Shown: piece by piece, positions 1 through 47,133 of the stretch | How the letters are laid out: each line of letters opens with the position of its first letter | Numbering within the stretch: the first letter of the stretch is position 1 | Notes under the pieces: model-generated | What the model was told of the DNA's origin: nothing | Seen by the model: the letters and a program-made list of their open reading frames with translations, nothing else | Databases searched by the model: none | Made by a program: the position numbers and the translations under genes | NCBI GenBank assembly: GCA_000004985.1 | Contig: GG738853.1 | DNA length: 64,000 nucleotides | Reading direction: 5' to 3' (one strand) | Source of the DNA: Naegleria gruberi | Lineage: Eukaryota

Positions 1-3000
1 CTGAAAATGGCATTAACTTTGGTCCTCTTAGTTTTGATAAGGAAAGACAAAGACCATTTGAAATATTTAACACTGGTATTTTTGATATTCAATACACCCT
101 ATTCGATTACTCTAAGGGTTTACCAGAATCAACAGAAGATAAATCAAATACCAATGATCCAAAGAAAAAGGGTAACGATACAAAGAAAAACAACAAAACT
201 GCAAAGAAAGTTGATCCACAACTACAAATTGGTCAATTCATGATTCAACCAACAGTTGGTACAATCGCTCCAGGAAGTAAAGCATCCATAAATATTACTT
301 TCAAGGGAGATGGAACCAAAGTTTTCCAAGAAACATTGGGAATAGATATTTCAGATAGAAATATGGAAGAGCAACCAAATGGTATTGCTTACTATATCCA
401 AGGAGAATCATGTGTTCCAGGTATTGTAACAAATGAGTTTGAATCCATATTTGAAGAACAACAAATAGTTTCTAATATGGATATGATCCTTAATCCTCTC
501 CACAGTTCTTTTACTCTGGATGAAAGAATTTTCCATTTTGGTACAATTCCAGTAGGCAAGAAAGTGACAGAGAAAATTAAAGTTATCAATCCATTCAAAG
601 TTCCTTGTAATGTTGAATGTAGTGTTAAACCTAGAGATATGACAGGAAATAAGGATATTAATATGTTTGAGGCTAGTCCACCAAAGTTGTTCATTCCACC
701 TCACGAACACAGATATGTCAATATTTCATTCCTACCTCCTACTATGAATAACTATTCTGCCATCTTTGAGGCTACTGTAATAGATGGAAATGATCCAAAA
801 ACCAAAGATCTCAAGATAGAAATCAGAGGAGAAGGTTCTCTACCTCAAGTATTAATCAAAAAACCTGAAAAAGTTGGTGAAAATTCAATTTTGAAATTCC
901 CAAAGACAGCTGTTGGAAGAAGAGAGGAATTACCTGTATTAATTAGTAACGAAGGACTCTTGCCAGCAACTGTTAGATTTGATTTCCCAAATCACTCATC
1001 TTTATTGTTCCCAAGTAGACTAGAAGAATTCGTTCTCGAAAGTAAGGAGTCAAAGAAGTTCTCTATGATATTTGAACCTCACCAAGCTGAACAAATTGAA
1101 ACAACTCTGAATATGGTCGTCTTAGATAATCACTTTGAAGATACCAGTATTAAGGTTATTGCTGAAAGCTTTGAAGAAGATGTAATTATCAATAACCTCC
1201 CCCTAGGCAAAGAAAATGAGTTGAACTTTGGAGACTGCTATGTTAAAGCAAAGAATGAAAGAACTTTTGTATTAGAGAATCATGCCAAAGTTCCAGTAAG
1301 ATTCCAGTTTGAAACACCCGACGGAATTACTGTATCTCCTTGTGTTGGCCATATCCAACCAAAATCTTCAAAAGAAATTATTGCCACTTTCTTATGTGAT
1401 GAGCCAACAGAAATTAAAGGCGATTTGTTAAAATGCTCACTTAAAAAGATAGAATTTTTAAATGATGAAGAAGAAATTGACTGGGATGATAGACACAAGT
1501 CCATTAAATGGGTAGAAGTTGATGAGGAAGAGGAAGCAAGAAAATTGAAGGAATTGGAAGAAAAGAAGCAAAGAGAGAAGGAGCAAAAGGAAAATGAAAA
1601 GAAAGGCATTAAAAAGAAGGAAGAAAAGAAGCCAGCCGCAACAAAAACTACCAAAGCAGAAGAAAAGAGTGAGCCACAAGAAGCCAAACCAAAGAAATTA
1701 GTTACCAAGCGTATGGAGGTTACTGATCCTGAACCTCAACACAATATTATTGGAGACATTTCTGAAAAGTCTGTTGCTGTCTATACTAATGCTGATTATG
1801 CCAAATTTGAAATTAATACCACTGATGTTGTATTTTCTACCACCAAAATGTTTGAAACACGTATTCATAATGTCACTCTTAAGAATATTGGCAAAGTTTT
1901 GCTCAACTTCTCATGGAGTAGTTCTCAATATATTGATGGTCCTTTCGAGCTGGAAACTAAGCAAGGACAAATCAAACCAGGCGAACAAACTATCTTTACT
2001 ATCAAATATGCTCCTCAAGATGTAGACAAACATGAAGAAATATTTACATGTTATATTGATAATATTGAACCTTCTTGCAGTATTCCTAGTGTTAGAGTTT
2101 CAGGCATTTCTAAATGTCCACTCGTTCACTTTGAATTGCCACCAAGTGATTATTTGTCAGGAGGAAGAAGAAAGGCATCCATGTTCCAAAATCAAGAAAT
2201 AGAATCATTAATTGACAAGGATAAGACAAGAGTCATTGAACTTTATTCTTGTGGTATCAAAGTTAAAAATACTAAGCGTTTCTACATTCTCAATCCTACC
2301 GATGTGGACTTTAAGTATAGTTGGCAAAAGATCCAAAGTGATCCAAACGCTGAAGACAACTCCTTCTCATGCTTGACCAGAACTGGTATCATCAATAGTG
2401 GTAAAAAGTCAGAAATTATCTTTGAGTATGTTCCTTATACTATTGAAACAAAAGAATCTCTTTGGATGTTTAGTATTCCTTCCAGAAACTTGAATATACC
2501 ATTCTTGGTTGTAGGACATGCTAAAGAACCAGAAGTTTTCCTGGATACCGCTCGTGTAAACTTCCAAACTGTATTGGTGGGTGCTAAGTCCTCCCAATCT
2601 ATCCATCTTATCAATAGAGAGCCTATCCCATTCAGTTTCAGCTTTGACCAAACAGAATTCTTTGAAGATAATCAAACCGATAGACAGCCAGTACTTTTAC
2701 TTTCTCCAAAGAGTGGAACAATACCAGCAGATTCTACTATTCCAATCACATTACTTTACACTCCTACAGCCGAAAGCTCATTCAACTTCCAAGTTGCCTG
2801 CAGAGTAAAGAAGAAGCCATCTCTTCTCACATGCAACGTCAAGGGAGAAGGATTCCTTGTTCATGAAAGTTTAGAAGTATCTGATGAGTCCATGACTAGA
2901 GTCGTTCCAGTATCCTTCAAAGAAAATAGTAATGTTGACTTTGAAAGAGCCCAAATTAACGAAAAGAAAATTAAGAAGGTTATTATAACAAATCACGGAA

Positions 3001-5651
3001 ACTATAACTTTGACTATCAATGGTTCCATGCAAAGAACAAACTCATTACTATTAATCCAGATAGAGGAACTGTGTTCAAGGGAGGCAAACAAATTTGTGA
3101 CATCATTTTTAACCCAACAGCACAAGTCAAATTAGCTGGATACAAGTGTATTTGTAAGGTTACGAATAGTAATTCCTATGTCCTTAACTTATTCGGATCA
3201 GGTGCTCAACCAAAAATCAACTTTAGTTTCCTTCAATATGACTTTGGAGCTCACTTTTTATATCATCAAGGCATGGATAAAAGTCCATCAACAATGCTTA
3301 AAATTGAAAATTGTGATGAAAAGGATATCAGTTTTGAAATGCTCTACGATAACAAACCGCATTTGGAAGTTGAAGCCTCTGCCACAGTGCTAAAACCAGG
3401 AGAGAGCAGACAAATCAAGGTTTACTTTAGACCAAGAGAAATCAAACTCTATAAGGAAACTGTCATGTTCGAAATTAATGGTCTGTATAAGACAAGTGTA
3501 ATCTTCACTGGCGAAGGAACTGCATCAAAAGTTGAATTGTCAAACCCTGTTGATAAGGTAATTAATTTAGGATCAATCAGAGGAGGTGAAGTTATCACCA
3601 AATATGTTAATATTGTGAATAAGAGTAAGATTACAGCAAATGTTTCCTTATTGAAAGAAACTTTGGATCAATTAGCCAAGTGTTATATTACCTTGAGTCC
3701 AAAGACTGCTTTCTCGATCCATCCAAGGCAAGAAGCACAAATTGGCCTAACATTTAAACCAGAATCACGACTTTCAACATTCAATGTTGAACTAAATGCT
3801 TACATAGACGGAAGAATCAAACTTCTTTCAAATGTGACAGGTTCTTGCCAGGGTGTAGAAGTCAAGCTAAACACTTCAACCATTGCTTTTGGACCAGTTG
3901 TTCAAAACACTGTAGTTGTTAGCAGGGCAATTATAGAAAATACAGGAGATATTGGTGTTAATTACAAGTGGAATACCAAAGGCCTTTACAGTGCATTTTC
4001 TATCAAGCCGTTACAAGGATTCATTCCTCCTAATGAAGAAGCATTATTGGAAATCACATACTCTCCAACAAAGATAGATACTACTGGTCAATCTTCTACA
4101 ATAGAATGTAAACTAGATTCACTTAGAGATCCTATTCCTATGACAATCAGTGGTATTTGTGTAGAAAAACCAAAAGGAAAAGAAACTTTGTCATTCAGAG
4201 TTGCTGTCAGACAAAAGCAAAACAAATCCGTAAAGATTGACAATCCAACAAAGAGTGATTGGAGATTAAAACCAGTAATTGATAATCCATTCTGGAGTGG
4301 ATTGGAATATCTTGAAGTACCAGCAAATAGTACTCGAGAATATGAAGTTACATATGCACCATTATCAATGACATTGAACTCTCCACATAAGGGAACGCTA
4401 TTTTTCCCATTACCTGACGGAAAAGCTATCCTTTATGAGTTGTCTGGTGAATCATTAGATCCATTGCCAGCTGGATCAATTATTAAGGATTTATATGCAA
4501 AGGAGCACCATATTGAAACTCTTTTCGTTGAAAATTGGCTCGGGAAGGCCCAAAGATTTGCTGTTATTCTTGACGACCTTAATATCAAGTCACCTAACCA
4601 ACTTACTGCTGTTAATTATATTGATGTACCACCAATTTCCAAGAGAGAATACAAGTTCAGCTTCCTTCCTTTCAAGGACGGTCAATTTGAAGGAAAGGTT
4701 AGATTTGTTAACGAAGAAACCAAAGAATTTATTTATTATAATGTCAAGTTTAACGTGTTGAAAGCGAGATCTTCAGAAGAAATTGTAATGGAAACTCCTG
4801 TTAGACAAAAGATTGTCAAGACAGTAACTGTAGAAAATCCATTAGAAAAAGAATCTGTTCTTGCTGTCAAATGTGACTCTACAGATATTATTGTTTCCTC
4901 TGAACTAAGAATACCAGCCAAGTCATTTGCTAAATGTGAGTTTGTTTATCTTCCGTTATTGGTTTCCGATCCTAAGAAGGCCAAGTTGACTATTGGAAAT
5001 GATGAATTAGGTATTTTCCCATTCGATTTATTATTGAAGCCAATTGCCAAAGTTTCTGAAAGAAGTACACACTTTTCGGTATCTCTTGGTAGTTCTCAAA
5101 CTCAAACTATTAGATTTGTAAACTTTGCCAGGCAAGCCACTGAGTACACATGCAAGATCGAAGACAACCAAACTGATTTTGCTCTTGTGGACAAACCTGT
5201 TGTCAAAGCTCCACAAGCAACCTCATTAGAAGGAAATGAGATTAGTCTTGATGTTACCTATGAACCAACAATGACTGGTGCAACTAAGGCAAAATTGATT
5301 CTTACATCTCCAATTGGTGGTGAATATGTTTTTTGGTTGTTTGGAAAATGTTCTCCTCCAAGAGCACAAGGTCCTATTGAAATTATTCCAAACGGAACTT
5401 CTCAAATTACATTCAAGAATGTTTTCGATAAGAAGACTGACTTTAAGTTTGTAATTGACGACCCTTCAAACAGTTTCAGTGTCAAACCAGATAATGCATC
5501 CATGACAGTCAAACAAAAACTTCCACTTACTATCTCTTACAAACCTTCAAGTGCTGCATCTTCAAAGGTAACATATGGAAAACTCACTATTAGCTCTAAG
5601 GGAAGTCAACTCACTTGGTTGTATTATTTGATGGGAAAACCTAATAATTAA
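1..5651 (+). CDS. HYDIN-like ASH-domain (PapD/MSP-like Ig-fold repeat) ciliary central-apparatus protein, C-terminal ~1,880 aa; 5' partial (continues upstream of window)
   Basis: Frame 3 is open from nt 3 (ENGINFGPLSFDKERQRPFEIF...) straight into track ORF 240..5651, so the track M at 240 is internal. There are more than 15 repeats of the ASH/PapD-like pattern (FxFGxxxVG...VxNxGxxPxxF), for example ERIFHFGTIPVGKK, ELNFGDCYVKAKNERTF, ARVNFQTVLVGAKSS and STIAFGPVVQNTVVV, plus a Lys/Glu-rich insert. The stop is TAA at 5649-5651. HYDIN is the best match by size and domain density, but CFAP65/CFAP47/CFAP74-type proteins cannot be excluded. Confidence 0.6.
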   Translation, partial: ENGINFGPLSFDKERQRPFEIFNTGIFDIQYTLFDYSKGLPESTEDKSNTNDPKKKGNDTKKNNKTAKKVDPQLQIGQFMIQPTVGTIAPGSKASINITFKGDGTKVFQETLGIDISDRNMEEQPNGIAYYIQGESCVPGIVTNEFESIFEEQQIVSNMDMILNPLHSSFTLDERIFHFGTIPVGKKVTEKIKVINPFKVPCNVECSVKPRDMTGNKDINMFEASPPKLFIPPHEHRYVNISFLPPTMNNYSAIFEATVIDGNDPKTKDLKIEIRGEGSLPQVLIKKPEKVGENSILKFPKTAVGRREELPVLISNEGLLPATVRFDFPNHSSLLFPSRLEEFVLESKESKKFSMIFEPHQAEQIETTLNMVVLDNHFEDTSIKVIAESFEEDVIINNLPLGKENELNFGDCYVKAKNERTFVLENHAKVPVRFQFETPDGITVSPCVGHIQPKSSKEIIATFLCDEPTEIKGDLLKCSLKKIEFLNDEEEIDWDDRHKSIKWVEVDEEEEARKLKELEEKKQREKEQKENEKKGIKKKEEKKPAATKTTKAEEKSEPQEAKPKKLVTKRMEVTDPEPQHNIIGDISEKSVAVYTNADYAKFEINTTDVVFSTTKMFETRIHNVTLKNIGKVLLNFSWSSSQYIDGPFELETKQGQIKPGEQTIFTIKYAPQDVDKHEEIFTCYIDNIEPSCSIPSVRVSGISKCPLVHFELPPSDYLSGGRRKASMFQNQEIESLIDKDKTRVIELYSCGIKVKNTKRFYILNPTDVDFKYSWQKIQSDPNAEDNSFSCLTRTGIINSGKKSEIIFEYVPYTIETKESLWMFSIPSRNLNIPFLVVGHAKEPEVFLDTARVNFQTVLVGAKSSQSIHLINREPIPFSFSFDQTEFFEDNQTDRQPVLLLSPKSGTIPADSTIPITLLYTPTAESSFNFQVACRVKKKPSLLTCNVKGEGFLVHESLEVSDESMTRVVPVSFKENSNVDFERAQINEKKIKKVIITNHGNYNFDYQWFHAKNKLITINPDRGTVFKGGKQICDIIFNPTAQVKLAGYKCICKVTNSNSYVLNLFGSGAQPKINFSFLQYDFGAHFLYHQGMDKSPSTMLKIENCDEKDISFEMLYDNKPHLEVEASATVLKPGESRQIKVYFRPREIKLYKETVMFEINGLYKTSVIFTGEGTASKVELSNPVDKVINLGSIRGGEVITKYVNIVNKSKITANVSLLKETLDQLAKCYITLSPKTAFSIHPRQEAQIGLTFKPESRLSTFNVELNAYIDGRIKLLSNVTGSCQGVEVKLNTSTIAFGPVVQNTVVVSRAIIENTGDIGVNYKWNTKGLYSAFSIKPLQGFIPPNEEALLEITYSPTKIDTTGQSSTIECKLDSLRDPIPMTISGICVEKPKGKETLSFRVAVRQKQNKSVKIDNPTKSDWRLKPVIDNPFWSGLEYLEVPANSTREYEVTYAPLSMTLNSPHKGTLFFPLPDGKAILYELSGESLDPLPAGSIIKDLYAKEHHIETLFVENWLGKAQRFAVILDDLNIKSPNQLTAVNYIDVPPISKREYKFSFLPFKDGQFEGKVRFVNEETKEFIYYNVKFNVLKARSSEEIVMETPVRQKIVKTVTVENPLEKESVLAVKCDSTDIIVSSELRIPAKSFAKCEFVYLPLLVSDPKKAKLTIGNDELGIFPFDLLLKPIAKVSERSTHFSVSLGSSQTQTIRFVNFARQATEYTCKIEDNQTDFALVDKPVVKAPQATSLEGNEISLDVTYEPTMTGATKAKLILTSPIGGEYVFWLFGKCSPPRAQGPIEIIPNGTSQITFKNVFDKKTDFKFVIDDPSNSFSVKPDNASMTVKQKLPLTISYKPSSAASSKVTYGKLTISSKGSQLTWLYYLMGKPNN

Positions 5652-15396: not shown

Positions 15397-15514
15397 GACT
15401 ACGGCCATATCACGATGAATGCACCTCATCCCGTCCGATTTGAGAAGTTAAGCATCGTCGAGCCACATCAGTACTGAGGTTGGAGACAACTTGGGAACCT
15501 GTGGTGCTGTAGTC
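15397..15514 (+). rRNA. 5S ribosomal RNA gene, copy 1 (~118 nt) followed by a T5 Pol III terminator
   Basis: GACTACGGCCATATCACGATGAATGCACCTCATCCCGTCCGATTTGAGAAGTTAAGCATCGTCGAGCCACATCAGTACTGAGGTTGGAGACAACTTGGGAACCTGTGGTGCTGTAGTC aligns along its whole length with eukaryotic 5S (GxCTACGGCCATAcCAC...CCGTCyGATyTgaGAAGtTAAGC...GTACT...GGGAA...GGTGCTGTAGtC). The 5' and 3' ends can pair (helix I) and TTTTT follows at 15515-15519. Confidence 0.85.
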
Positions 15515-15608
15515 TTTTTGCAGATTGCATTTGTAATATCACTTTGTTGGGAGCTTGTTTTTATTGATATTGCAATAATGTTACATTGAGTACTGTAGAA
15601 AGCAGTAA

Positions 15609-33780: not shown

Positions 33781-35735
33781 ATGAGTAAATCCAATGAATA
33801 TACCGAAGACGTTTCATTGGAGGCCATGAAAAACATTAATCCTGTATTATTTGATCTGATTGTGTGTAACAGTACGAGGGGGTCTAGGATTTCGGAATTG
33901 AAAAAACTTCTTAATTATGATACTAGTAGGACTTCATCAGCACCTAAATATATTGAAAAATCACCCCTTACTCATCGTACTATGGAAAGAAAGAGAAAAG
34001 CTGAAGGAAAACTACCCGAATTAAAGCTTGATGATAGTGGCACTTTCATAACGGGGATACAAAACAATGAATCAAAGAGTAAATCAAAAGACAGGAGTGT
34101 TAGTTGTAATGATCAATTGAGGGAATCTTTGATGAGGGAAATAACTCCTCCTTTCAAGGCTAGGAAAACAAGTAAAACATCAGAGGATACAAGGAGAAAA
34201 CCAACACAGGATGTTATTGAAATTGCAATGTCTAACTATACGGAACAGGAAAATATCAAACTAACTAAATTGATGAACATTTATGACAAGAAGCAAATAT
34301 CAGAAATTAGAGCAAGTCCTGCTCTTGTAAATATTTTGAGATATATCGAGGAAGCCAAGACACCTAGGGATAGGAGTTTGTTTTGGGAGGATTATGAATA
34401 CATTCAGAAAATGATTGTGGAAGAAAGGGAACCATTCTCAACCAAGAAGGAGAAGGAAAAGAAGTTGACAACAACTAAGAAAATCATTCCAAAGAAAACT
34501 GTAAATTTTAAAGAGCATACTCTAGAACCAATTAATATGTTTGAAAGAGATTTACCAAAAGCACTTCGACAGAGAATTACTGAAATTAAAAACAACCCTG
34601 CCTTTATGACAAAACTGGAAGAAATTAAAAGAAGTAAGAAGAAAAATTTACCAATTATTCAAGAGGAGGAACATAATGATGATCATGATTCGAGAGGGGA
34701 TGAAGGATTGGAGGAAGGAGCTGAAGATATTCCATTCCTGGGTCCTATTGGAAATAACGAGATTTCAAATATTATTTTACTGTTATTGAAAAAGGAAAGA
34801 ACTATTCAGTTGTTTGATACAGACACGAGGAATGATTTTTATGTGTTTTTGGATCAAAGTAGACTCCATTTTTGGCAATCCTTGGTTCTAAGGTCGAATT
34901 TTGTTCAGAATTTGCATTCCAAGTTCAAATCAAACAGAGAACTCGGTAACACGAAACAAACGGAAGCTCAAAAACCAAAAGAATTGGAAAAATTCTCTAG
35001 AAAGTATGTAATATTTCAATCTTGAATATTCTAACACTTTTTAGTCAATACGTGGCAAGAATGTTGTGGAAAATTAACAGAAAGAAAATTGCTGCAGAGA
35101 TTATTAGGAGGAGTTTTATTAGTTTCCTGGATGCCAAACTAGTGTACAAAGCAATGCAAAAACTGAGAGCAAACATGACGACTTGTAGGGATATGATTAG
35201 ATCCTATTTAGAAATTAAAAAAGCGAGATTATTACTTTTGAGATTGCAATTTCAAAAATTGGAAGGTTCTGTAAAGACAATAACCATGGCCAGTTTGATG
35301 CAATCAATCTTAAAGTCTAGGAATAGTACAAACAAGATTCACTTGGATGGTGAAATGAGAAAGGAGTACATTAAGCTTCATAAGGCAGTAAGACATGCTC
35401 ACGACCAAGGCAGACATACACCAAGTCCTGAACCATTCAGAATGTCTCCTAGCCCTGAACCGAAAACCCACGATCAACATCACAAAAATCTGCAACATCA
35501 TGAAGAGAATATCAGTGCAGTTCCACTTGAAGTTGTAAATCGAGTGCTGAAAGAAGATTACGTGATAAGAAGACAATTATTTATGAAACAGGTATTCGAT
35601 AGTACAGAAAAACAATATTTCAAATGTCTTCTCGATTCTGAAAGAATGTATCAACTTGTTGTAATTGCAAGAACAAGAGCAGCTTCAATGCTAGAGAAGA
35701 AGAGAAACTCTGTCTACCTCAGTGCTGAACAATGA
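33781..35735 (+). CDS. hypothetical basic protein with IQ-like motif; join(33781..35003,35045..35735), ~637 aa
   Basis: A 41-nt intron, GTATGTAATATTTCAATCTTGAATATTCTAACACTTTTTAG, joins ...ELEKFSRN to QYVARMLWKINRKKIAAEIIRRSFISFLD (IQ-like) in frame, and the track stop is inside the intron. A weak GGCGCG motif lies ~110 bp upstream (33664-33672). Confidence 0.45.
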
Positions 35736-35823: not shown

Positions 35824-38800
35824 TTAGACTGAGGTAACTTGAACAAGTGTTTGGGAAGAACTGACAGAATACTTTTCAAGAAGAGCAGTTGGATATTCAC
35901 CACCTTCGAGAACTCTATACAAGTAAGTATCATAAACTGTCTTATCCCATTGGTGACCAGTAATACCACCTGGTACTAGAATCTTTGGTTTTATCGAAGA
36001 ACTTGATGCAACACTGTTTGCACCCAATACAGCATATTGTTGGAAGTAGAATCCTTGATTGGAGTAGAATCTTGGAGAGTAGTTTTCATCGAGACCAGTG
36101 GTAGATGAAGTTGAAGTAGAAATATCTGGACGAACTGGAGCAGATTGATAAATTGTAAATTCACCACCAGCAACAGAGTATGTAGAACGAGTACAAGCAC
36201 AACTGTAACTTCCATCTTCAGAGAAGTAGTGAGAGAACTTCTTTTCATAAATGTTACCCAACTTTGGATCACCATACTTCTTAATGACACTTTGTAATGC
36301 CTTAGCAGCATAGAGATCGCAAGCAGTTTGATCAGCAGCTTGACCAGTAACACCATAGATAGTGCTCAAAGCCAAAACACAAGATTGAATATTTCTATTT
36401 TGAGTATCAGATGAAATAGTTTCACTAGTGACAGTTGTTCCATTCTTAGAGTAGACATAGTTTGGCAAGAAGGCATCTCTGACGAAAATTGGATTGTCCC
36501 AATAAGCAACACCAGTATCAGAAGCAGCAATTCTACTCAATTCATAGTACCATCTTTGAGCAATTGGAGCTTCAGATGAGCTTGAAGTGAAACTACCATC
36601 CCATGCCAACAAAAGTTTACCAATTGATGAAGAGGAAATGTCAGAGTAATAATTGACAGACTTGGTCAACAATGGCATCAAATCTTCAGAGAAATAAACG
36701 TTAACTTGATCCTTAATGAACTTCTTAAGATCAGCTTCAAGGAATGGAGTTGTTGTAGAACCATAGTATGGAGAAATCAAATCGTTCAATCTTCTAGCTC
36801 TATAACTGTGACCAAAATCATAACCAAAGTTATAACGATAACCATATCCAACTGGTTTGTTGTTTGCACTGACAAAGTAATCCTTACGAGCAATGAAAGC
36901 TCTAAAGTTAACAAGAGCAGCATTGTAACCAGTCCAGACTTGATTATTTGAGGCAGGGAACAAACCAGAGTGACCAGTTGCTCTAATTGGGAATCTACCA
37001 ACACCAAAGTAAACTGGATAAGCAGCAGTAAACATGACCAACATGTTCATTGGTGGATTGTGGAAATTGTTAACAGTCAAAGTATTGAAAGTAGCCAAAG
37101 TAGTTTGTTGCCAAGCTTGAGTAATCCAATTCATGGTCAAATCAACATCAGAGAGGGATGTCCACTTTAATGCCAATTGAGCACCGCTCTTCTTCAAAGT
37201 ATCTGGAAGAATATCAGTCATGATTGGACCATAAACAGTTGAACGAACAGTGATAGTAACAGCAGATGCACCCTTAACATTGATAGTTTCAGTTCTGGTA
37301 GTATATGGAAGAGTAGCTCCATTAGCAGCATAGTTATTTGATGAACCATCATCCTTAATAATGTACCAATCCATACAGTCAGCATACATATTTGATGTAG
37401 TGAAGGTGTTAATTGAGGAACGACCTTCAATCAAACCTGGAATACCTGGAATAGTTGGTCCCATTGAGGAATAAGTAGAGGCAGTTGTCTTGAACTTGAG
37501 TTTAGCAACATAGACAGGATTAGGAACTTGAGTTCTGAAACCTTCACCCTTTGAAGAAACATAGGCAGAAGATGAAGCAGACAATGCAGTACCAAATAAG
37601 TAACCACCAGCACCAATCCAATCACTGTTTTGTTTGAGCATTGTTGTGAGAGGATCGAAATATAAGAGCAAATCATCAACACTGGCAAATTTAGGAGCAG
37701 TATAGGAAGTACTAGTTGATTTAGGAGAAGTAACACCAATATTTGATTGAGCATTGATGTTATTCAATCTGTCTTGAGTTAAACTATCGAGTTCAGTTTG
37801 TCTATAAATATTTCTCAAAGAAACTGGAGTATCCAATTCAACAGGAGTGAAAGAAGCAAAACTAGAATTCAAAGGAGTCATTGGAACTAGATCCATAACA
37901 CGATCCATACTCAATTCTTTAACAGTTGCCAAATAGAAACGTAAAATTTCCATATTAGCATTACCACTGTTAATGAATTGCCACAACTTTAAAACAGCCA
38001 TTGAATCATAAATAGTCCAATCAGCAATATCGTATGAACCCAAAGTGGTTTCAAAGGCCTTATTTGAAGAACCATATCTTCCCTTATAATAATTAACACC
38101 AGCTGCATATCTTGAAACAAAAGTTTGAGTGTCACTAGTTAAATTAGTATAATGAGAAACACCATAATTATATAAACTCAAAGTTCTCATATACTTGTCA
38201 CAATATAAAGCTCTGTCTCCGACAATTTCACTCAATTGACCTCTAGCAATTCTTCTATAATAATCCATTTGGAATAATCTATCACGAGCATGAGCAAATC
38301 CTAAACCGAAAGCAACATCTTCAATATCTGATCCAGTAATATGTGAAAAACCTTCAGAATCTCTTTCAATGACAATTTTATCACCCTTCACAACAATATC
38401 TCTCAAAATGGAAATGGTTTCTTGCACAAGTGAAACATGTTGTTGATGATATGCTGCTGCAATTGCTGTCAAAATTAAACACATACAAGTTGCCAACAAG
38501 ACAAATGTTGCCAAAGTAACATAACCAACAATTTTTAAATATTCAAGAGTTGTTCTAGAAGCTTGAACATCGGATGGAAGTGCTGCTTGTTCAACAGCAG
38601 GACTATAAAGAGTATATCATCATTGTTATGTTATTGAATATATCATAATTGTCATGTTATTGAATATATATATATCAGATTGAATATGAATATGAAGGAG
38701 AATTCAAAGTTATCAAATGTGAGTGTGTGTATTCATCATCATATTCATCAATATAATTATTATGAGAGTTGAAATTAAAATTGTTGTTGTGGTGATGGAA

Positions 38801-39147
38801 ATTGTGTTCAAGAATAGAGAGAGAGAAAATATCAAATATATTTGATTATAATATAGAGGTGTGTGTGTTAATTTTCAAAATATATATTGTTGAAACTATT
38901 CACATTCACATTCAAAACACACTTACATTTTAAAGTATTTAATAGCAAATATTAAATAGATAACAACAGGGAATGCCAAAAAGAATGGCACTGTGACTAA
39001 AAAGACAAATAACCAATATCCAGGACAGAATCTAAAAACTGTACCAGCATCAATGACTGGATAAATCCACAACAATAAATTGATTAAAATCAAGAAAACT
39101 AGACAGATGGCATAGGGCCTGTATAGTTTGTAGTGCAACCAGGCCAT
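35824..39147 (-). CDS. penicillin amidase / acyl-homoserine-lactone acylase family (Ntn-hydrolase, PF01804-type) protein with separate N-terminal 2-TM exon; join(39147..38927,38602..35824), ~999 aa
   Basis: The main exon carries the penicillin-acylase N-terminal signature (DIEDVAFGLGFAHARDRLFQMDYYRRIARGQLSEIVG) and a candidate self-processing nucleophile (…NTFTT-SNMYADCMDWY). The track start 38514 is a TTG. The frame is open upstream to an acceptor CTCTTTATAG at 38603. Exon 1 (track ORF 38923..39147, ATG at 39147) encodes two hydrophobic helices and ends AIKYFK+'at' at a GTAAGT donor. Phases match across a 324-nt AT-rich intron (38603-38926) that contains (CA)n/(CT)n microsatellite stretches. 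Confidence 0.7.
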
Positions 39148-46626: not shown

Positions 46627-46744
46627 GACTACGGCCATATCACGATGAATGCACCTCATCCCGTCTGATTTGAGAAGTTAAGCATCGTCGAGCCACATCA
46701 GTACTGAGGTTGGAGACAACTTGGGAACCTGTGGTGCTGTAGTC
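46627..46744 (+). rRNA. 5S ribosomal RNA gene, copy 2, followed by a T5 terminator
   Basis: Identical to copy 1 except for one substitution (CCGTCTGATTT in place of CCGTCCGATTT). TTTTT at 46745-46749. Upstream elements shared with copy 1 are TAATGA just 5' of the gene and TTCATATTT at -25/-50. Confidence 0.85.
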
Positions 46745-47133
46745 TTTTTAATTTTTGAAATTTTTTTTAATTTTTGAAATTTTTCAAGAAGTAAATTTAT
46801 GAATTCAGATAATGATTCCAAAAAAGAGAATTCAATTTAATATGTTGAAAGAGCATTCTTATGGAGATACAACCCTCAAAATATTTGGAACACTCATTGA
46901 AAAGCAAGCATGTTATTGTCAATTTTTAAGAAAAAACAATTTGGTTCTATTTTACCAATTGAATGATTCTGTTGTTTTAAAAGCGTAATGCAAAACAGGT
47001 CTATGCCAGGTATAATAGTCAGTGTCATCAAATACGTTGGTGAGGATATTCTTTTGTGTGAGCTCGTCACAAACACGTATTTCTTCCAATGTTGTTGGCT
47101 TAATGGTGAGTGTTTTGGAATCACAGATACCTC

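What the first reader, a model, noticed from the sequence alone, without database searches (positions are those of the whole stretch)
35824..39147. Bacterial-type penicillin-amidase/AHL-acylase gene carrying a spliceosomal intron and a grafted two-helix membrane-anchor exon
The 925-aa main exon is a full Ntn-hydrolase penicillin-amidase-family protein (GFAHARDRLFQMD signature; candidate SNMYA nucleophile). This family is overwhelmingly prokaryotic. Here it sits in a eukaryotic gene. Its reading frame has no ATG until it is joined, in matching phase across a 324-nt AT-rich microsatellite-containing intron, to a 73-codon upstream exon that encodes two TM helices. This looks like a horizontally acquired enzyme that was later fitted with a eukaryotic membrane-targeting exon. 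The substrate in a protist (AHL quorum signals of prey bacteria, beta-lactams or N-acyl lipids) is open.
Basis: partly seen in the sequence, partly recalled or inferred. Interest (0 to 1): 0.55.

Follow-up and report, generated by a model that had tools for sequence, protein, structure and literature searches.

The report
Naegleria membrane-anchored penicillin-acylase-like protein gene
This is a real, already annotated Naegleria gruberi gene for a three-pass membrane protein with a penicillin-acylase fold; it belongs to an old, widespread eukaryotic family rather than a recent bacterial graft, and its catalytic serine motif is degraded, so it is probably not a working acylase.

Summary
Exon 1 (39147..38927), a 324-nt GT..AG phase-2 intron and exon 2 (38602..35824) give a 999-aa protein. 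It is 100% identical to NCBI's 'penicillin amidase family protein [Naegleria gruberi]'. Pfam PF01804 matches at E=1e-93, and an AlphaFold model matches solved acylase structures.

1. The two-helix N-terminus is not a Naegleria graft. A 2+1 transmembrane N-terminus is shared by a clade of eukaryotic homologs: a choanoflagellate, Balamuthia, Acrasis, Pharyngomonas and further Naegleria paralogs.
2. The intron is not the fusion seam. Acrasis has its intron elsewhere, and another eukaryote has none.
3. Exon 2 carries its own helix. It corresponds to the bacterial signal anchor.
4. 'SNMYA' is not the nucleophile.
5. At the true position, N. gruberi and N. fowleri have no Ser/Thr/Cys under either plausible alignment. 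The conserved N-D-P-H motif has become K/R-G-E-G.

The gene sits in a 12-member, 100%-bootstrap subclade with mosaic loss of catalytic residues. A canonical paralog exists elsewhere in N. gruberi. The protein is most likely a non-catalytic, or non-canonical, surface or luminal protein. Interest is modest.

The parts
38927..39147 (-). Exon 1: start codon, codons 1-73 and the first 2 nt of codon 74. It encodes the TM1-loop-TM2 hairpin with the conserved F-R-x-C-P-G-Y-W loop.
   Evidence: It is conserved in N. fowleri (79%) and in contig L001 (68%, same 221-nt length), with third-position-biased differences of 19/10/44.
39052..39108 (-). TM1 (residues ~14-32)
   Evidence: Kyte-Doolittle scan. AlphaFold helix 2-28.
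38941..39018 (-). TM2 (residues ~44-69), preceded by a conserved Cys41
   Evidence: The Cys is conserved across the divergent and canonical eukaryotic clades.
38603..38926 (-). Spliceosomal intron: 324 nt, GTAAGT...TATAG, phase 2, 24% GC
   Evidence: The same position and phase occur in L001 with a 146-nt intron that shares the first 12 nt. The intron is absent at this position in Acrasis.
35824..38602 (-). Exon 2: last nt of codon 74, codons 75-999 and the TAA stop (35826..35824)
38458..38529 (-). TM3 (residues ~99-122). It is positionally equivalent to the single N-terminal signal anchor of the bacterial homologs. It contains the internal ATG 38484..38482.
   Evidence: In bacteria the single hydrophobic segment lies ~50-75 residues before the DRLFQ motif. 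TM3 has the same spacing to that motif here.
36133..38373 (-). Penicillin amidase domain (PF01804), residues 151-897
   Evidence: E=1.4e-93. AlphaFold pTM 0.83. Foldseek hits to D-succinylase, cephalosporin acylase precursor, MacQ and PGA, TM-score 0.66-0.79 normalised by target.
38263..38301 (-). GFAHARDRLFQMD alpha-subunit motif (residues 175-187), retained
37600..37629 (-). Degenerate nucleophile region N399-S400-D401-W402-I-G404-A405-G406-G407-Y408. The canonical G-S-N-x-W is absent in register.
   Evidence: Searches put Ser1 opposite A405. Searches put Ser1 opposite N399. AlphaFold gives pLDDT <50 for residues 399-406 and a first strand at 408-412.
37540..37551 (-). K425-G-E-G428, replacing the N-D-P-H motif that is 81-98% conserved in bacteria
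37381..37395 (-). It is not the nucleophile and aligns to the PGA beta ~67-71 region. S477 replaces a Thr that is 100% conserved.
36799..36864 (-). Retained oxyanion-hole Asn (N654, equivalent to PGA beta-Asn241) through the retained Arg (R675, equivalent to beta-Arg263)

Best explanation
The locus is a genuine two-exon N. gruberi gene for a three-pass membrane protein.

Architecture and topology:
- A cytosolic N-terminus is followed by a TM1-TM2 hairpin, a ~30-residue cytosolic linker and a third helix.
- The third helix is the counterpart of the bacterial signal anchor. It places an ~870-residue penicillin-acylase-fold domain in the ER lumen, and from there on the cell surface, in the endolysosomal lumen or on extracellular vesicles.

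Origin:
- The gene belongs to a eukaryotic clade of 3-TM penicillin-acylase-like proteins. The clade's bacterial origin and its N-terminal extension both predate Heterolobosea.
- The Naegleria intron is a lineage-specific feature inside that extension.

Likely function:
- The gene lies in a fast-evolving subclade whose named members are all heteroloboseans. In it the catalytic centre (Ser1-Asn2, Asp21-Pro22-His23, and in some members Asn241 or Arg263) has decayed in a mosaic pattern, while the fold, the putative calcium-ligand aspartates (by analogy with PGA) and the alpha-subunit motif are kept.
- The N. gruberi protein therefore most likely stays a single uncleaved ~110-kDa chain. It would act non-catalytically, for example by binding a ligand, or through a non-canonical mechanism.
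- A canonical paralog (XP_002674471) elsewhere in the genome could supply any acylase activity.

Shown: gene model, fold, clade membership, motif loss. Inferred: topology, lack of self-processing, non-catalytic role.
For: Gene model and fold:
- The gene model is identical to the NCBI protein.
- Exon 1 is under purifying selection, and the intron position is conserved in contig L001.
- Pfam, AlphaFold and Foldseek confirm the fold.

N-terminal architecture:
- Almost all bacterial homologs have at most one N-terminal hydrophobic segment, whereas 48 long homologs have three.
- All 48 fall in one clade (bootstrap 66). Its named members are eukaryotes from Discoba, Amoebozoa and Opisthokonta.
- The L002 contig carries Ist1, Dpy-30, PPR and PIG-X genes and an intronless 3-TM-plus-amidase ORF.
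- The Acrasis intron is at a different site.
- hhalign aligns the conserved loop Cys of the two N-terminal modules (E=9e-5, probability 59%).

Catalytic centre:
- The divergent 12-member clade has bootstrap 100.
- In 53 bacterial homologs, S1 and N2 are 100% conserved and W4, D21 and H23 are 98% conserved. All are changed in N. gruberi, N. fowleri and L001 in the call-26/32 alignment.
- In the catalytic-residue table, every canonical eukaryotic member listed (P0157 excepted) and all four bacterial members keep S1 and N2, and almost all keep the rest of the set. No divergent-clade member keeps the full set.
- The divergent clade is further from bacteria than the canonical eukaryotic members are (Kimura distance 1.87 against 1.48).
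- PDB holds S1G and S1C PGA mutants, and the S1G chains are long enough to be unprocessed precursors.

Protein-level data from N. fowleri:
- A 'penicillin amidase homolog' was identified in a ~140-kDa extracellular-vesicle band and a 100-kDa immunogenic band. These sizes fit an uncleaved chain (PMC9312180, PMC7350353).
Against: - The register at the nucleophile is ambiguous. Some alignments put Ser1 opposite A405, others opposite N399.
- S400 lies one residue off the canonical position. With a local shift it might still act as the nucleophile.
- The oxyanion-hole Asn (N654) and Arg (R675) are retained in Naegleria, which would be unexpected if catalysis were fully abandoned.
- The relative L001 keeps a perfect S-N-D-W under one alignment.
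- The tree is neighbour-joining on Kimura distances with only 66% support for the eukaryotic clade. Long-branch effects are possible.
- Most clade members come from unnamed metagenome or transcriptome contigs.
- It is not known which N. fowleri paralog the proteomics entry Q25548 represents, and the gel bands also contained proteins of very different sizes.
- The AlphaFold coordinates could not be inspected residue by residue.
Confidence: 0.62

Rival explanations
1. The protein is still an active N-terminal-nucleophile (Ntn) amidohydrolase. It would self-cleave between N399 and S400 and use S400 as a shifted nucleophile. N654 and R675 would form the oxyanion hole. The enzyme would hydrolyse N-acyl amides, such as acyl-homoserine lactones of prey bacteria or N-acyl lipids, at the cell surface or in phagosomes.
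For: - A Ser sits immediately next to the canonical position.
- Asn at the -1 position occurs in canonical members with N-S-N-N-W (P0116, P0131, P0146, P0223).
- N654, R675 and the D482/D485 pair are retained.
- The region D-W-x-G-x-G-G-(Y/F)-x-F is strongly conserved among N. gruberi, N. fowleri and L001.
- Half of the divergent clade keeps Ser or Thr at position 1.
Against: - No alignment puts a Ser, Thr or Cys at position 1 in N. gruberi or N. fowleri.
- Other clade members have lost N241 or R263. This points to clade-wide release from catalytic constraint.
- AlphaFold gives residues 399-406 pLDDT <50 and does not place them in the core strand.
Confidence: 0.28
2. One reading: a bacterial acylase gene entered the Naegleria lineage by horizontal transfer and was then given a eukaryotic two-helix membrane-anchor exon by exon shuffling. 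The intron would mark the joint.
For: - The family is predominantly prokaryotic. All 100 weaker hits of the first search were ~580-1000-aa proteins that, where named, were bacterial or archaeal.
- The extension is absent from bacterial homologs.
- The intron lies between TM2 and the rest of the protein.
Against: - The 3-TM architecture is shared with choanoflagellate, amoebozoan and other heterolobosean proteins, which form one clade with the Naegleria protein.
- The architecture exists without any intron in L002 and with a differently placed intron in Acrasis.
- The intron lies ~25 codons upstream of the boundary with bacterial-homologous sequence.
- Codon usage is fully native.
Confidence: 0.07
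3. The locus is a decaying pseudogene or an annotation artefact.
For: Loss of catalytic motifs could reflect decay.
Against: - A full-length open frame is conserved at 66%, 55% and lower identity across Naegleria, L001, Acrasis and Pharyngomonas.
- Substitutions in exon 1 are biased to the third codon position.
- Transcriptome-derived complete ORFs exist in Pharyngomonas.
- Proteomic detection of a 'penicillin amidase homolog' in N. fowleri has been reported.
Confidence: 0.03

Closest known systems
Bacterial penicillin G acylase / cephalosporin acylase / D-succinylase family (Pfam PF01804, Ntn hydrolases)
   Same: - Same fold. Foldseek E is 1e-30 to D-succinylase 7ea4/7eby, 5e-24 to the cephalosporin acylase precursor 1keh, and ~1e-17 to PGA beta chains.
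- The same alpha-subunit D-R-L-F-Q motif, the putative calcium-ligand aspartates, and the equivalents of Asn-beta241 and Arg-beta263 are present.
- A hydrophobic signal anchor lies just before the domain.
   Different: - Two extra transmembrane helices and a linker sit at the N-terminus.
- The G-S-N-x-W nucleophile motif is not in register.
- N-D-P-H is replaced by K-G-E-G.
- Sequence identity is 15-28%.
- Insertions make the domain about 100 residues longer.
Acyl-homoserine-lactone acylases PvdQ / QuiP / AiiD / MacQ
   Same: - Same superfamily.
- MacQ (5c9i) is a Foldseek hit at E~1e-19.
- The Acrasis ortholog carries the automatic name 'quiP'.
   Different: - There is no specific affinity. 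MacQ ranks below D-succinylase and cephalosporin acylase.
- The catalytic Ser1 and the residue-23 motif are missing, so a quorum-quenching role is not supported by sequence.
Canonical eukaryotic 3-TM penicillin-acylase-like proteins (N. gruberi XP_002674471/D2VNF6, Balamuthia KAL6042778, Didymoeca costata EP00039_P001838, N. lovaniensis XP_044544430)
   Same: - Same 2+1 transmembrane N-terminus, with a conserved Cys before TM2.
- Same domain and same clade.
   Different: - Those proteins keep A/G-S-N-N-W, N-D-P-H, Asn241 and Arg263.
- The window gene and its 11 closest relatives do not keep the full set.
Pseudoenzymes in general: catalytically dead homologs kept under selection (comparison from general knowledge; no Ntn-family example was looked for)
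   Same: The fold is conserved and under purifying selection, while catalytic residues are lost in a mosaic pattern across a clade.
   Different: Inactivity has not been demonstrated here. I found no report of a dead member of the PF01804 family in the searched literature.

Membership tests
Pfam PF01804 penicillin amidase family | Significant match to the family profile above the gathering score | tested here: met
   315.6 bits against a cutoff of 21.3, E=1.4e-93, residues 151-897
Pfam PF01804 penicillin amidase family | Ntn-hydrolase alpha-beta-beta-alpha fold of the penicillin acylase type | tested here: met
   AlphaFold pTM 0.83. Foldseek probability 1.00 to D-succinylase, cephalosporin acylase, MacQ and PGA, with TM-score 0.66-0.79 normalised by target.
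Catalytically active Ntn penicillin/AHL acylases | Ser nucleophile at beta-subunit position 1 in a (G/A)-S-N-x-W motif | tested here: not met
   S and N are 100% conserved in 53 bacterial homologs. N. gruberi has A405-G406 in one alignment or N399-S400 in the other. The register is ambiguous, but neither option has Ser, Thr or Cys at position 1.
Catalytically active Ntn penicillin/AHL acylases | Conserved N-D-P-H (PGA: N-G-P-Q) strand carrying residue beta-23 | tested here: not met
   K425-G426-E427-G428 in N. gruberi and R-G-E-G in N. fowleri and L001
Catalytically active Ntn penicillin/AHL acylases | Oxyanion-hole Asn (beta-241) and Arg (beta-263) | tested here: met
   N654 and R675 lie in columns that are invariant across all 61 aligned sequences. 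Acrasis and four or five other clade members have lost them.
Catalytically active Ntn penicillin/AHL acylases | Autoproteolytic processing into alpha and beta chains with removal of a spacer | not testable with these tools
   Inferred to be absent because the nucleophile is lost. Gel bands of 100-140 kDa in N. fowleri proteomics are compatible with an uncleaved chain, but the paralog is unknown.
Eukaryotic 3-TM penicillin-acylase-like clade (defined here) | Two N-terminal TM helices with a conserved loop Cys, a linker, a third TM helix, then the PF01804 domain | tested here: met
   TM segments at residues 14-32, ~44-69 and 99-122. Conserved Cys41. The protein groups with all other 3-TM proteins (bootstrap 66).
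Recent bacterium-to-Naegleria horizontal transfer | Nearest relatives are bacterial, with no eukaryotic sister sequences | tested here: not met
   The nearest relatives are Acrasis, Pharyngomonas and Heterolobosea sp. BB2, followed by other eukaryotic 3-TM proteins. Bacterial hits reach at most 28% identity over the full domain.

The most novel reading that the evidence does not exclude
Heteroloboseans, including the pathogen N. fowleri, carry a conserved clade of 'dead' penicillin-acylase-fold surface proteins on a 3-TM anchor. The clade derives from an ancient and still active eukaryotic family of membrane-bound Ntn acylases whose substrate is unknown. The dead copy would act as a binding or receptor protein, and it may be the immunogenic 'penicillin amidase homolog' seen in N. 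fowleri extracellular vesicles.
Probability: 0.45. Interest if true: 0.5.

Novelty: new variant of a known kind. Interest (0 to 1): 0.33.

Why it matters
As written, the finding is already in the databases: a bacterial-type amidase gene with an intron in Naegleria is an annotated NCBI model. A 'penicillin amidase homolog' of N. fowleri has a UniProt entry (Q25548) that proteomics papers cite. Three points go beyond that, and I did not find them described in the searched literature.

1. There is a broad eukaryotic clade of penicillin-acylase-like proteins with a shared three-helix membrane anchor. This turns a supposed Naegleria oddity into an old family of unknown function.
2. Naegleria has both canonical and catalytically degenerate paralogs.
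3. Published suggestions that this gene makes or degrades penicillins in Willaertia or Naegleria, or quenches quorum signals, should not be applied to this paralog without biochemical evidence.

If the degenerate paralog is the immunogenic vesicle protein of N. fowleri, its surface exposure and lack of a human homolog could matter for diagnostics.

Tried and rejected
Rejected: PDB and multiple alignments place it at PGA beta ~67-71.
- Contamination or a bacterial insert. Rejected: the flanking genes are eukaryotic and the gene's RSCU correlates at 0.92 with other ORFs in the window.
- tRNA and Rfam scans. Only two 5S rRNA genes were found, and they are unrelated to the locus.
- Fetching N. fowleri (P0002) and N. 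gruberi paralog (P0134) genomic DNA to compare intron positions. No record was found.
- Asgard origin. A Hodarchaeales homolog (P0030) is not near the eukaryotic clade.
- Resolving the nucleophile register. MAFFT L-INS-i with bacteria, global hhalign, and hhalign against the other divergent members give A405. MAFFT auto, L-INS-i with eukaryotes, and hhalign against the canonical eukaryotes give N399. This is unresolved, but the conclusion is the same under both.
- Using gel-band sizes from N. fowleri proteomics as evidence of non-processing. I kept this only as weak support, because the paralog behind Q25548 is unknown and the bands held proteins of many sizes.
- The sub-threshold Pfam hit to Phage_T4_gp36. 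Dismissed as chance.
- A literature search for an earlier description of the eukaryotic clade or of its inactivity found nothing.
Full report
**1. What is in the sequence**

- On the minus strand, an ATG at 39147 opens a 221-nt exon. The exon ends at a GTAAGT donor.
- The next 324 nt (38926..38603) are 24% GC, against 33-37% in the exons. They carry stops in all three frames, a 26-nt x2.2 tandem repeat and short simple repeats, and they end in TATAG.
- The following 2779 nt are open to a TAA at 35826..35824.
- Joining the two exons closes a split ATT codon (phase 2) and gives a 999-aa protein.
- That protein is 100% identical, end to end, to the NCBI/UniRef entry 'penicillin amidase family protein [Naegleria gruberi]' (P0001).
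- The window is therefore N. gruberi nuclear DNA. The flanking genes are eukaryotic: an adaptin large subunit, NOB1, a HYDIN/CFAP65-like giant and a dihydropyrimidine-dehydrogenase-like gene.
- The gene's GC3 (0.24) and codon usage (RSCU r=0.92 against other long ORFs) are native.

**2. The domain**

- Pfam PF01804 matches residues 151-897 at E=1.4e-93.
- An AlphaFold model built on a 61-sequence alignment has pTM 0.83 and mean pLDDT 77.5.
- Foldseek places the model with D-succinylase (7ea4/7eby, E~1e-30), cephalosporin acylase precursors (1keh), the AHL acylase MacQ and penicillin G acylase (PGA). Target-normalised TM-scores for the 50 listed hits range from 0.50 to 0.79.
- The GFAHARDRLFQMD motif is real and its core is 96-100% conserved in bacteria.

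**3. Exon 1 is real coding sequence, and the intron is real**

- N. fowleri has a 1000-aa ortholog (66% identity, full length).
- A 4.2-kb metagenomic contig (L001) encodes a 55%-identical relative.
- Upstream of its called gene, L001 has an ATG-initiated exon of exactly 221 nt and the same GTAAGTGTGTTT donor. A 146-nt intron follows, with a single in-frame acceptor that closes an ATC Ile codon at the same position and phase.
- Exon 1 is better conserved than the protein average: 79% against 66% with N. fowleri, and 68% against 55% with L001.
- N. gruberi and L001 differ at 19, 10 and 44 sites by codon position. That is the signature of purifying selection on a coding sequence.

**4. The membrane anchor is not a Naegleria graft**

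- Hydropathy and the model show three helices, not two: residues 14-32 and ~44-69 in exon 1, and 99-122 in exon 2.
- Most bacterial homologs have one N-terminal hydrophobic segment, about 50-75 residues before the D-R-L-F-Q motif. That is the spacing of the third helix here. TM3 is therefore the inherited signal anchor, and the added part is residues 1-~98.
- A profile search of 1.84 billion cluster representatives found 12,852 relatives at E≤0.001.
- Among the best 150 hits, 48 long proteins (778-1350 aa) have three predicted N-terminal transmembrane segments, in nearly all cases arranged as two helices plus one, as here. The ~800-aa proteins nearly all have at most one.
- Named members of the three-helix group are all eukaryotic:
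  - Acrasis kona
  - Pharyngomonas kirbyi
  - the choanoflagellate Didymoeca costata
  - Balamuthia mandrillaris
  - N. lovaniensis
  - a second N. gruberi protein (XP_002674471)
  Heterolobosea sp. BB2 (P0111), an N-terminally truncated transcript, is a further named eukaryote in the same clade.
- One unnamed member lies on a 35-kb contig with Ist1, Dpy-30, PPR and PIG-X genes. It encodes the whole architecture in one uninterrupted ORF.
- In a neighbour-joining tree of the domain (689 columns, 163 sequences, 100 bootstraps), all 48 fall in one 68-member clade with 66% support. Most of the other 20 members are N-terminally truncated or have long N-termini unlike those of the bacterial homologs.
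- The two-helix modules of the divergent and canonical groups share a conserved Cys just before TM2. hhalign aligns them at E=9e-5, probability 59%. This is weak on its own, given transmembrane composition.
- The Acrasis ortholog has a single 43-nt intron after codon 38 and none at the Naegleria position.
- The Naegleria intron sits inside the extension, about 25 codons before TM3.
- The extension is therefore ancestral to a broad eukaryotic family. The intron is specific to the lineage of Naegleria and L001, not the seam of a fusion.

**5. The catalytic centre**

- In 53 bacterial homologs the beta-subunit starts with G-S-N-x-W, where S and N are 100% and W is 98% conserved. About 20 residues later comes N-D-P-H, with D and H 98% conserved.
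- The three closest proteins read:
  - N. gruberi: KQ-N399-S-D-W-I-G-A405-G-G-Y...SS-K-G-E-G
  - N. fowleri: HNSDWFGAGGF...SSRGEG
  - L001: HSNDWMGTGGY...SSRGEG
- Alignment methods disagree on the register.
  - MAFFT L-INS-i with bacteria, global hhalign, and hhalign against the other divergent members put Ser1 opposite A405, which is Thr in L001.
  - MAFFT auto, L-INS-i with eukaryotic relatives, and hhalign against canonical eukaryotes put it opposite N399, which is Ser in L001. This register needs a 6-10-residue loop insertion.
- AlphaFold gives residues 399-406 pLDDT <50 and starts the first confident strand at 408. This fits the first register.
- Under either register, N. gruberi and N. 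fowleri have no Ser, Thr or Cys at position 1. All three proteins have lost D21, P22 and H23.
- The equivalents of Asn-beta241 (N654) and Arg-beta263 (R675) and the D482/D485 pair are kept.

**6. The subclade**

- The window protein forms a 12-member clade with 100% bootstrap. The members are N. fowleri, L001, Acrasis, Pharyngomonas, Heterolobosea sp. BB2 and six unnamed sequences.
- The table of catalytic positions shows mosaic loss:
  - Position 1 is N, N, S, T, S, I, S, K, S, N, N, S.
  - Asn2 survives in one member.
  - His23 survives in none.
  - Asn241 is lost in seven members and Arg263 in four.
- In the same table, every canonical eukaryotic member except P0157 and all four bacterial members keep Ser1 and Asn2. 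Almost all of them also keep the rest of the set.
- The subclade is also further from bacteria than the canonical eukaryotic members are (mean Kimura distance 1.87 against 1.48).
- This is the pattern expected of a clade released from catalytic constraint while the fold stays under selection.

**7. How it most likely works**

- Shown: it is a three-pass membrane protein gene with a penicillin-acylase-fold domain.
- Inferred topology:
  - The N-terminus (2 K/R, no acidic residues) lies in the cytosol. The TM2-TM3 linker (4 K/R, 3 D/E) is placed there too by the order of the helices.
  - The TM1-TM2 loop, with its conserved Cys, and the large domain lie in the ER lumen or outside the cell. This matches the bacterial signal-anchor orientation.
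- Inferred function: without a position-1 nucleophile the chain is not self-cleaved and has no free N-terminal nucleophile. PDB holds S1G and S1C mutant forms of PGA.
- The protein would therefore act by binding rather than by hydrolysis, or by a non-canonical mechanism using S400.
- Published N. fowleri proteomics found a 'penicillin amidase homolog' (Q25548) in a ~140-kDa vesicle band and a 100-kDa immunogenic band (PMC9312180, PMC7350353). These sizes are compatible with an uncleaved chain and with surface or vesicle exposure. The paralog is unknown, so this is weak support.
- I put about 0.6 on the non-canonical or non-catalytic reading and about 0.3 on an active enzyme with a shifted Ser.

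**8. Comparison with what is known**

- The gene model and family name are in NCBI and UniProt.
- Papers on Willaertia mention a penicillin amidase gene as a possible antibiotic-related enzyme (PMC6892926, PMC7285305).
- A 2026 preprint notes that the gene occurs in several protists and treats it as horizontally acquired in a diplonemid.
- I found no description of the shared three-helix anchor, of a eukaryotic clade, or of the catalytic degeneration.

**9. Verdict**

- The 'grafted exon' and 'SNMYA nucleophile' readings are wrong.
- The HGT reading holds only in the sense of an old bacterial origin for the whole eukaryotic clade.
- The added value is a degenerate-active-site subclade within an unstudied eukaryotic membrane-acylase family. 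This is a new variant of a known kind, of modest interest.

**Limitations**

- The tree is distance-based, with moderate support.
- Most clade members are unnamed.
- The nucleophile register is unresolved.
- No transcript or protein data for N. gruberi itself were available.

Noticed in passing
window 15397-15515 and 46627-46745 (+): Two full-length 5S rRNA genes (106 and 105 bits) lie 31 kb apart on the same strand, dispersed among protein-coding genes.
   Followed up: no
window 33781-35025 and 35022-35735 (+): Two same-strand ORFs (414 and 237 aa) overlap by 4 nt immediately downstream of the amidase gene's 3' end. Neither has a Pfam match. They may be one gene split by a small intron or a frameshift.
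   Followed up: partly
window 38915-38926 and L001 647-658: The N. gruberi intron and the intron of the metagenomic relative share their first 12 nt (GTAAGTGTGTTT). Over the rest, only about half of the 146 bases of the shorter intron align identically, and the lengths differ (324 against 146 nt).
   Followed up: partly
not in window: P0134 (XP_002674471, D2VNF6) and P0151 (N. lovaniensis XP_044544430): Naegleria carries further paralogs of the same 3-TM family that keep the canonical G-S-N-N-W and N-D-P-H motifs. N. gruberi therefore has both canonical and degenerate copies.
   Followed up: partly
P0157 (JGI metagenome, 995 aa): Another 3-TM clade member outside the divergent subclade reads I-A-S-H-W, with A-S in place of S-N. 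This suggests independent loss or shift of the nucleophile elsewhere in the eukaryotic family.
   Followed up: no
window 37228-37515 (protein residues 441-537): A sub-threshold Pfam match to Phage_T4_gp36 (24.7 bits against a cutoff of 26) falls inside the beta-sheet core of the amidase domain. It is probably chance.
   Followed up: no
window 3-5648 (+): A very long open frame (over 1880 aa, running off the window start) is full of HYDIN/CFAP65/Cep192-type Ig-like (ASH/MSP) domains. This fits a flagellar-apparatus protein of the amoeboflagellate.
   Followed up: no
L003 3117-3159 (Acrasis kona JAOPGA020000108.1): The Acrasis ortholog has a very short (43-nt) GT..AG intron in the TM1-TM2 loop, after codon 38 in phase 2. 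This is a different site from the Naegleria intron.
   Followed up: yes
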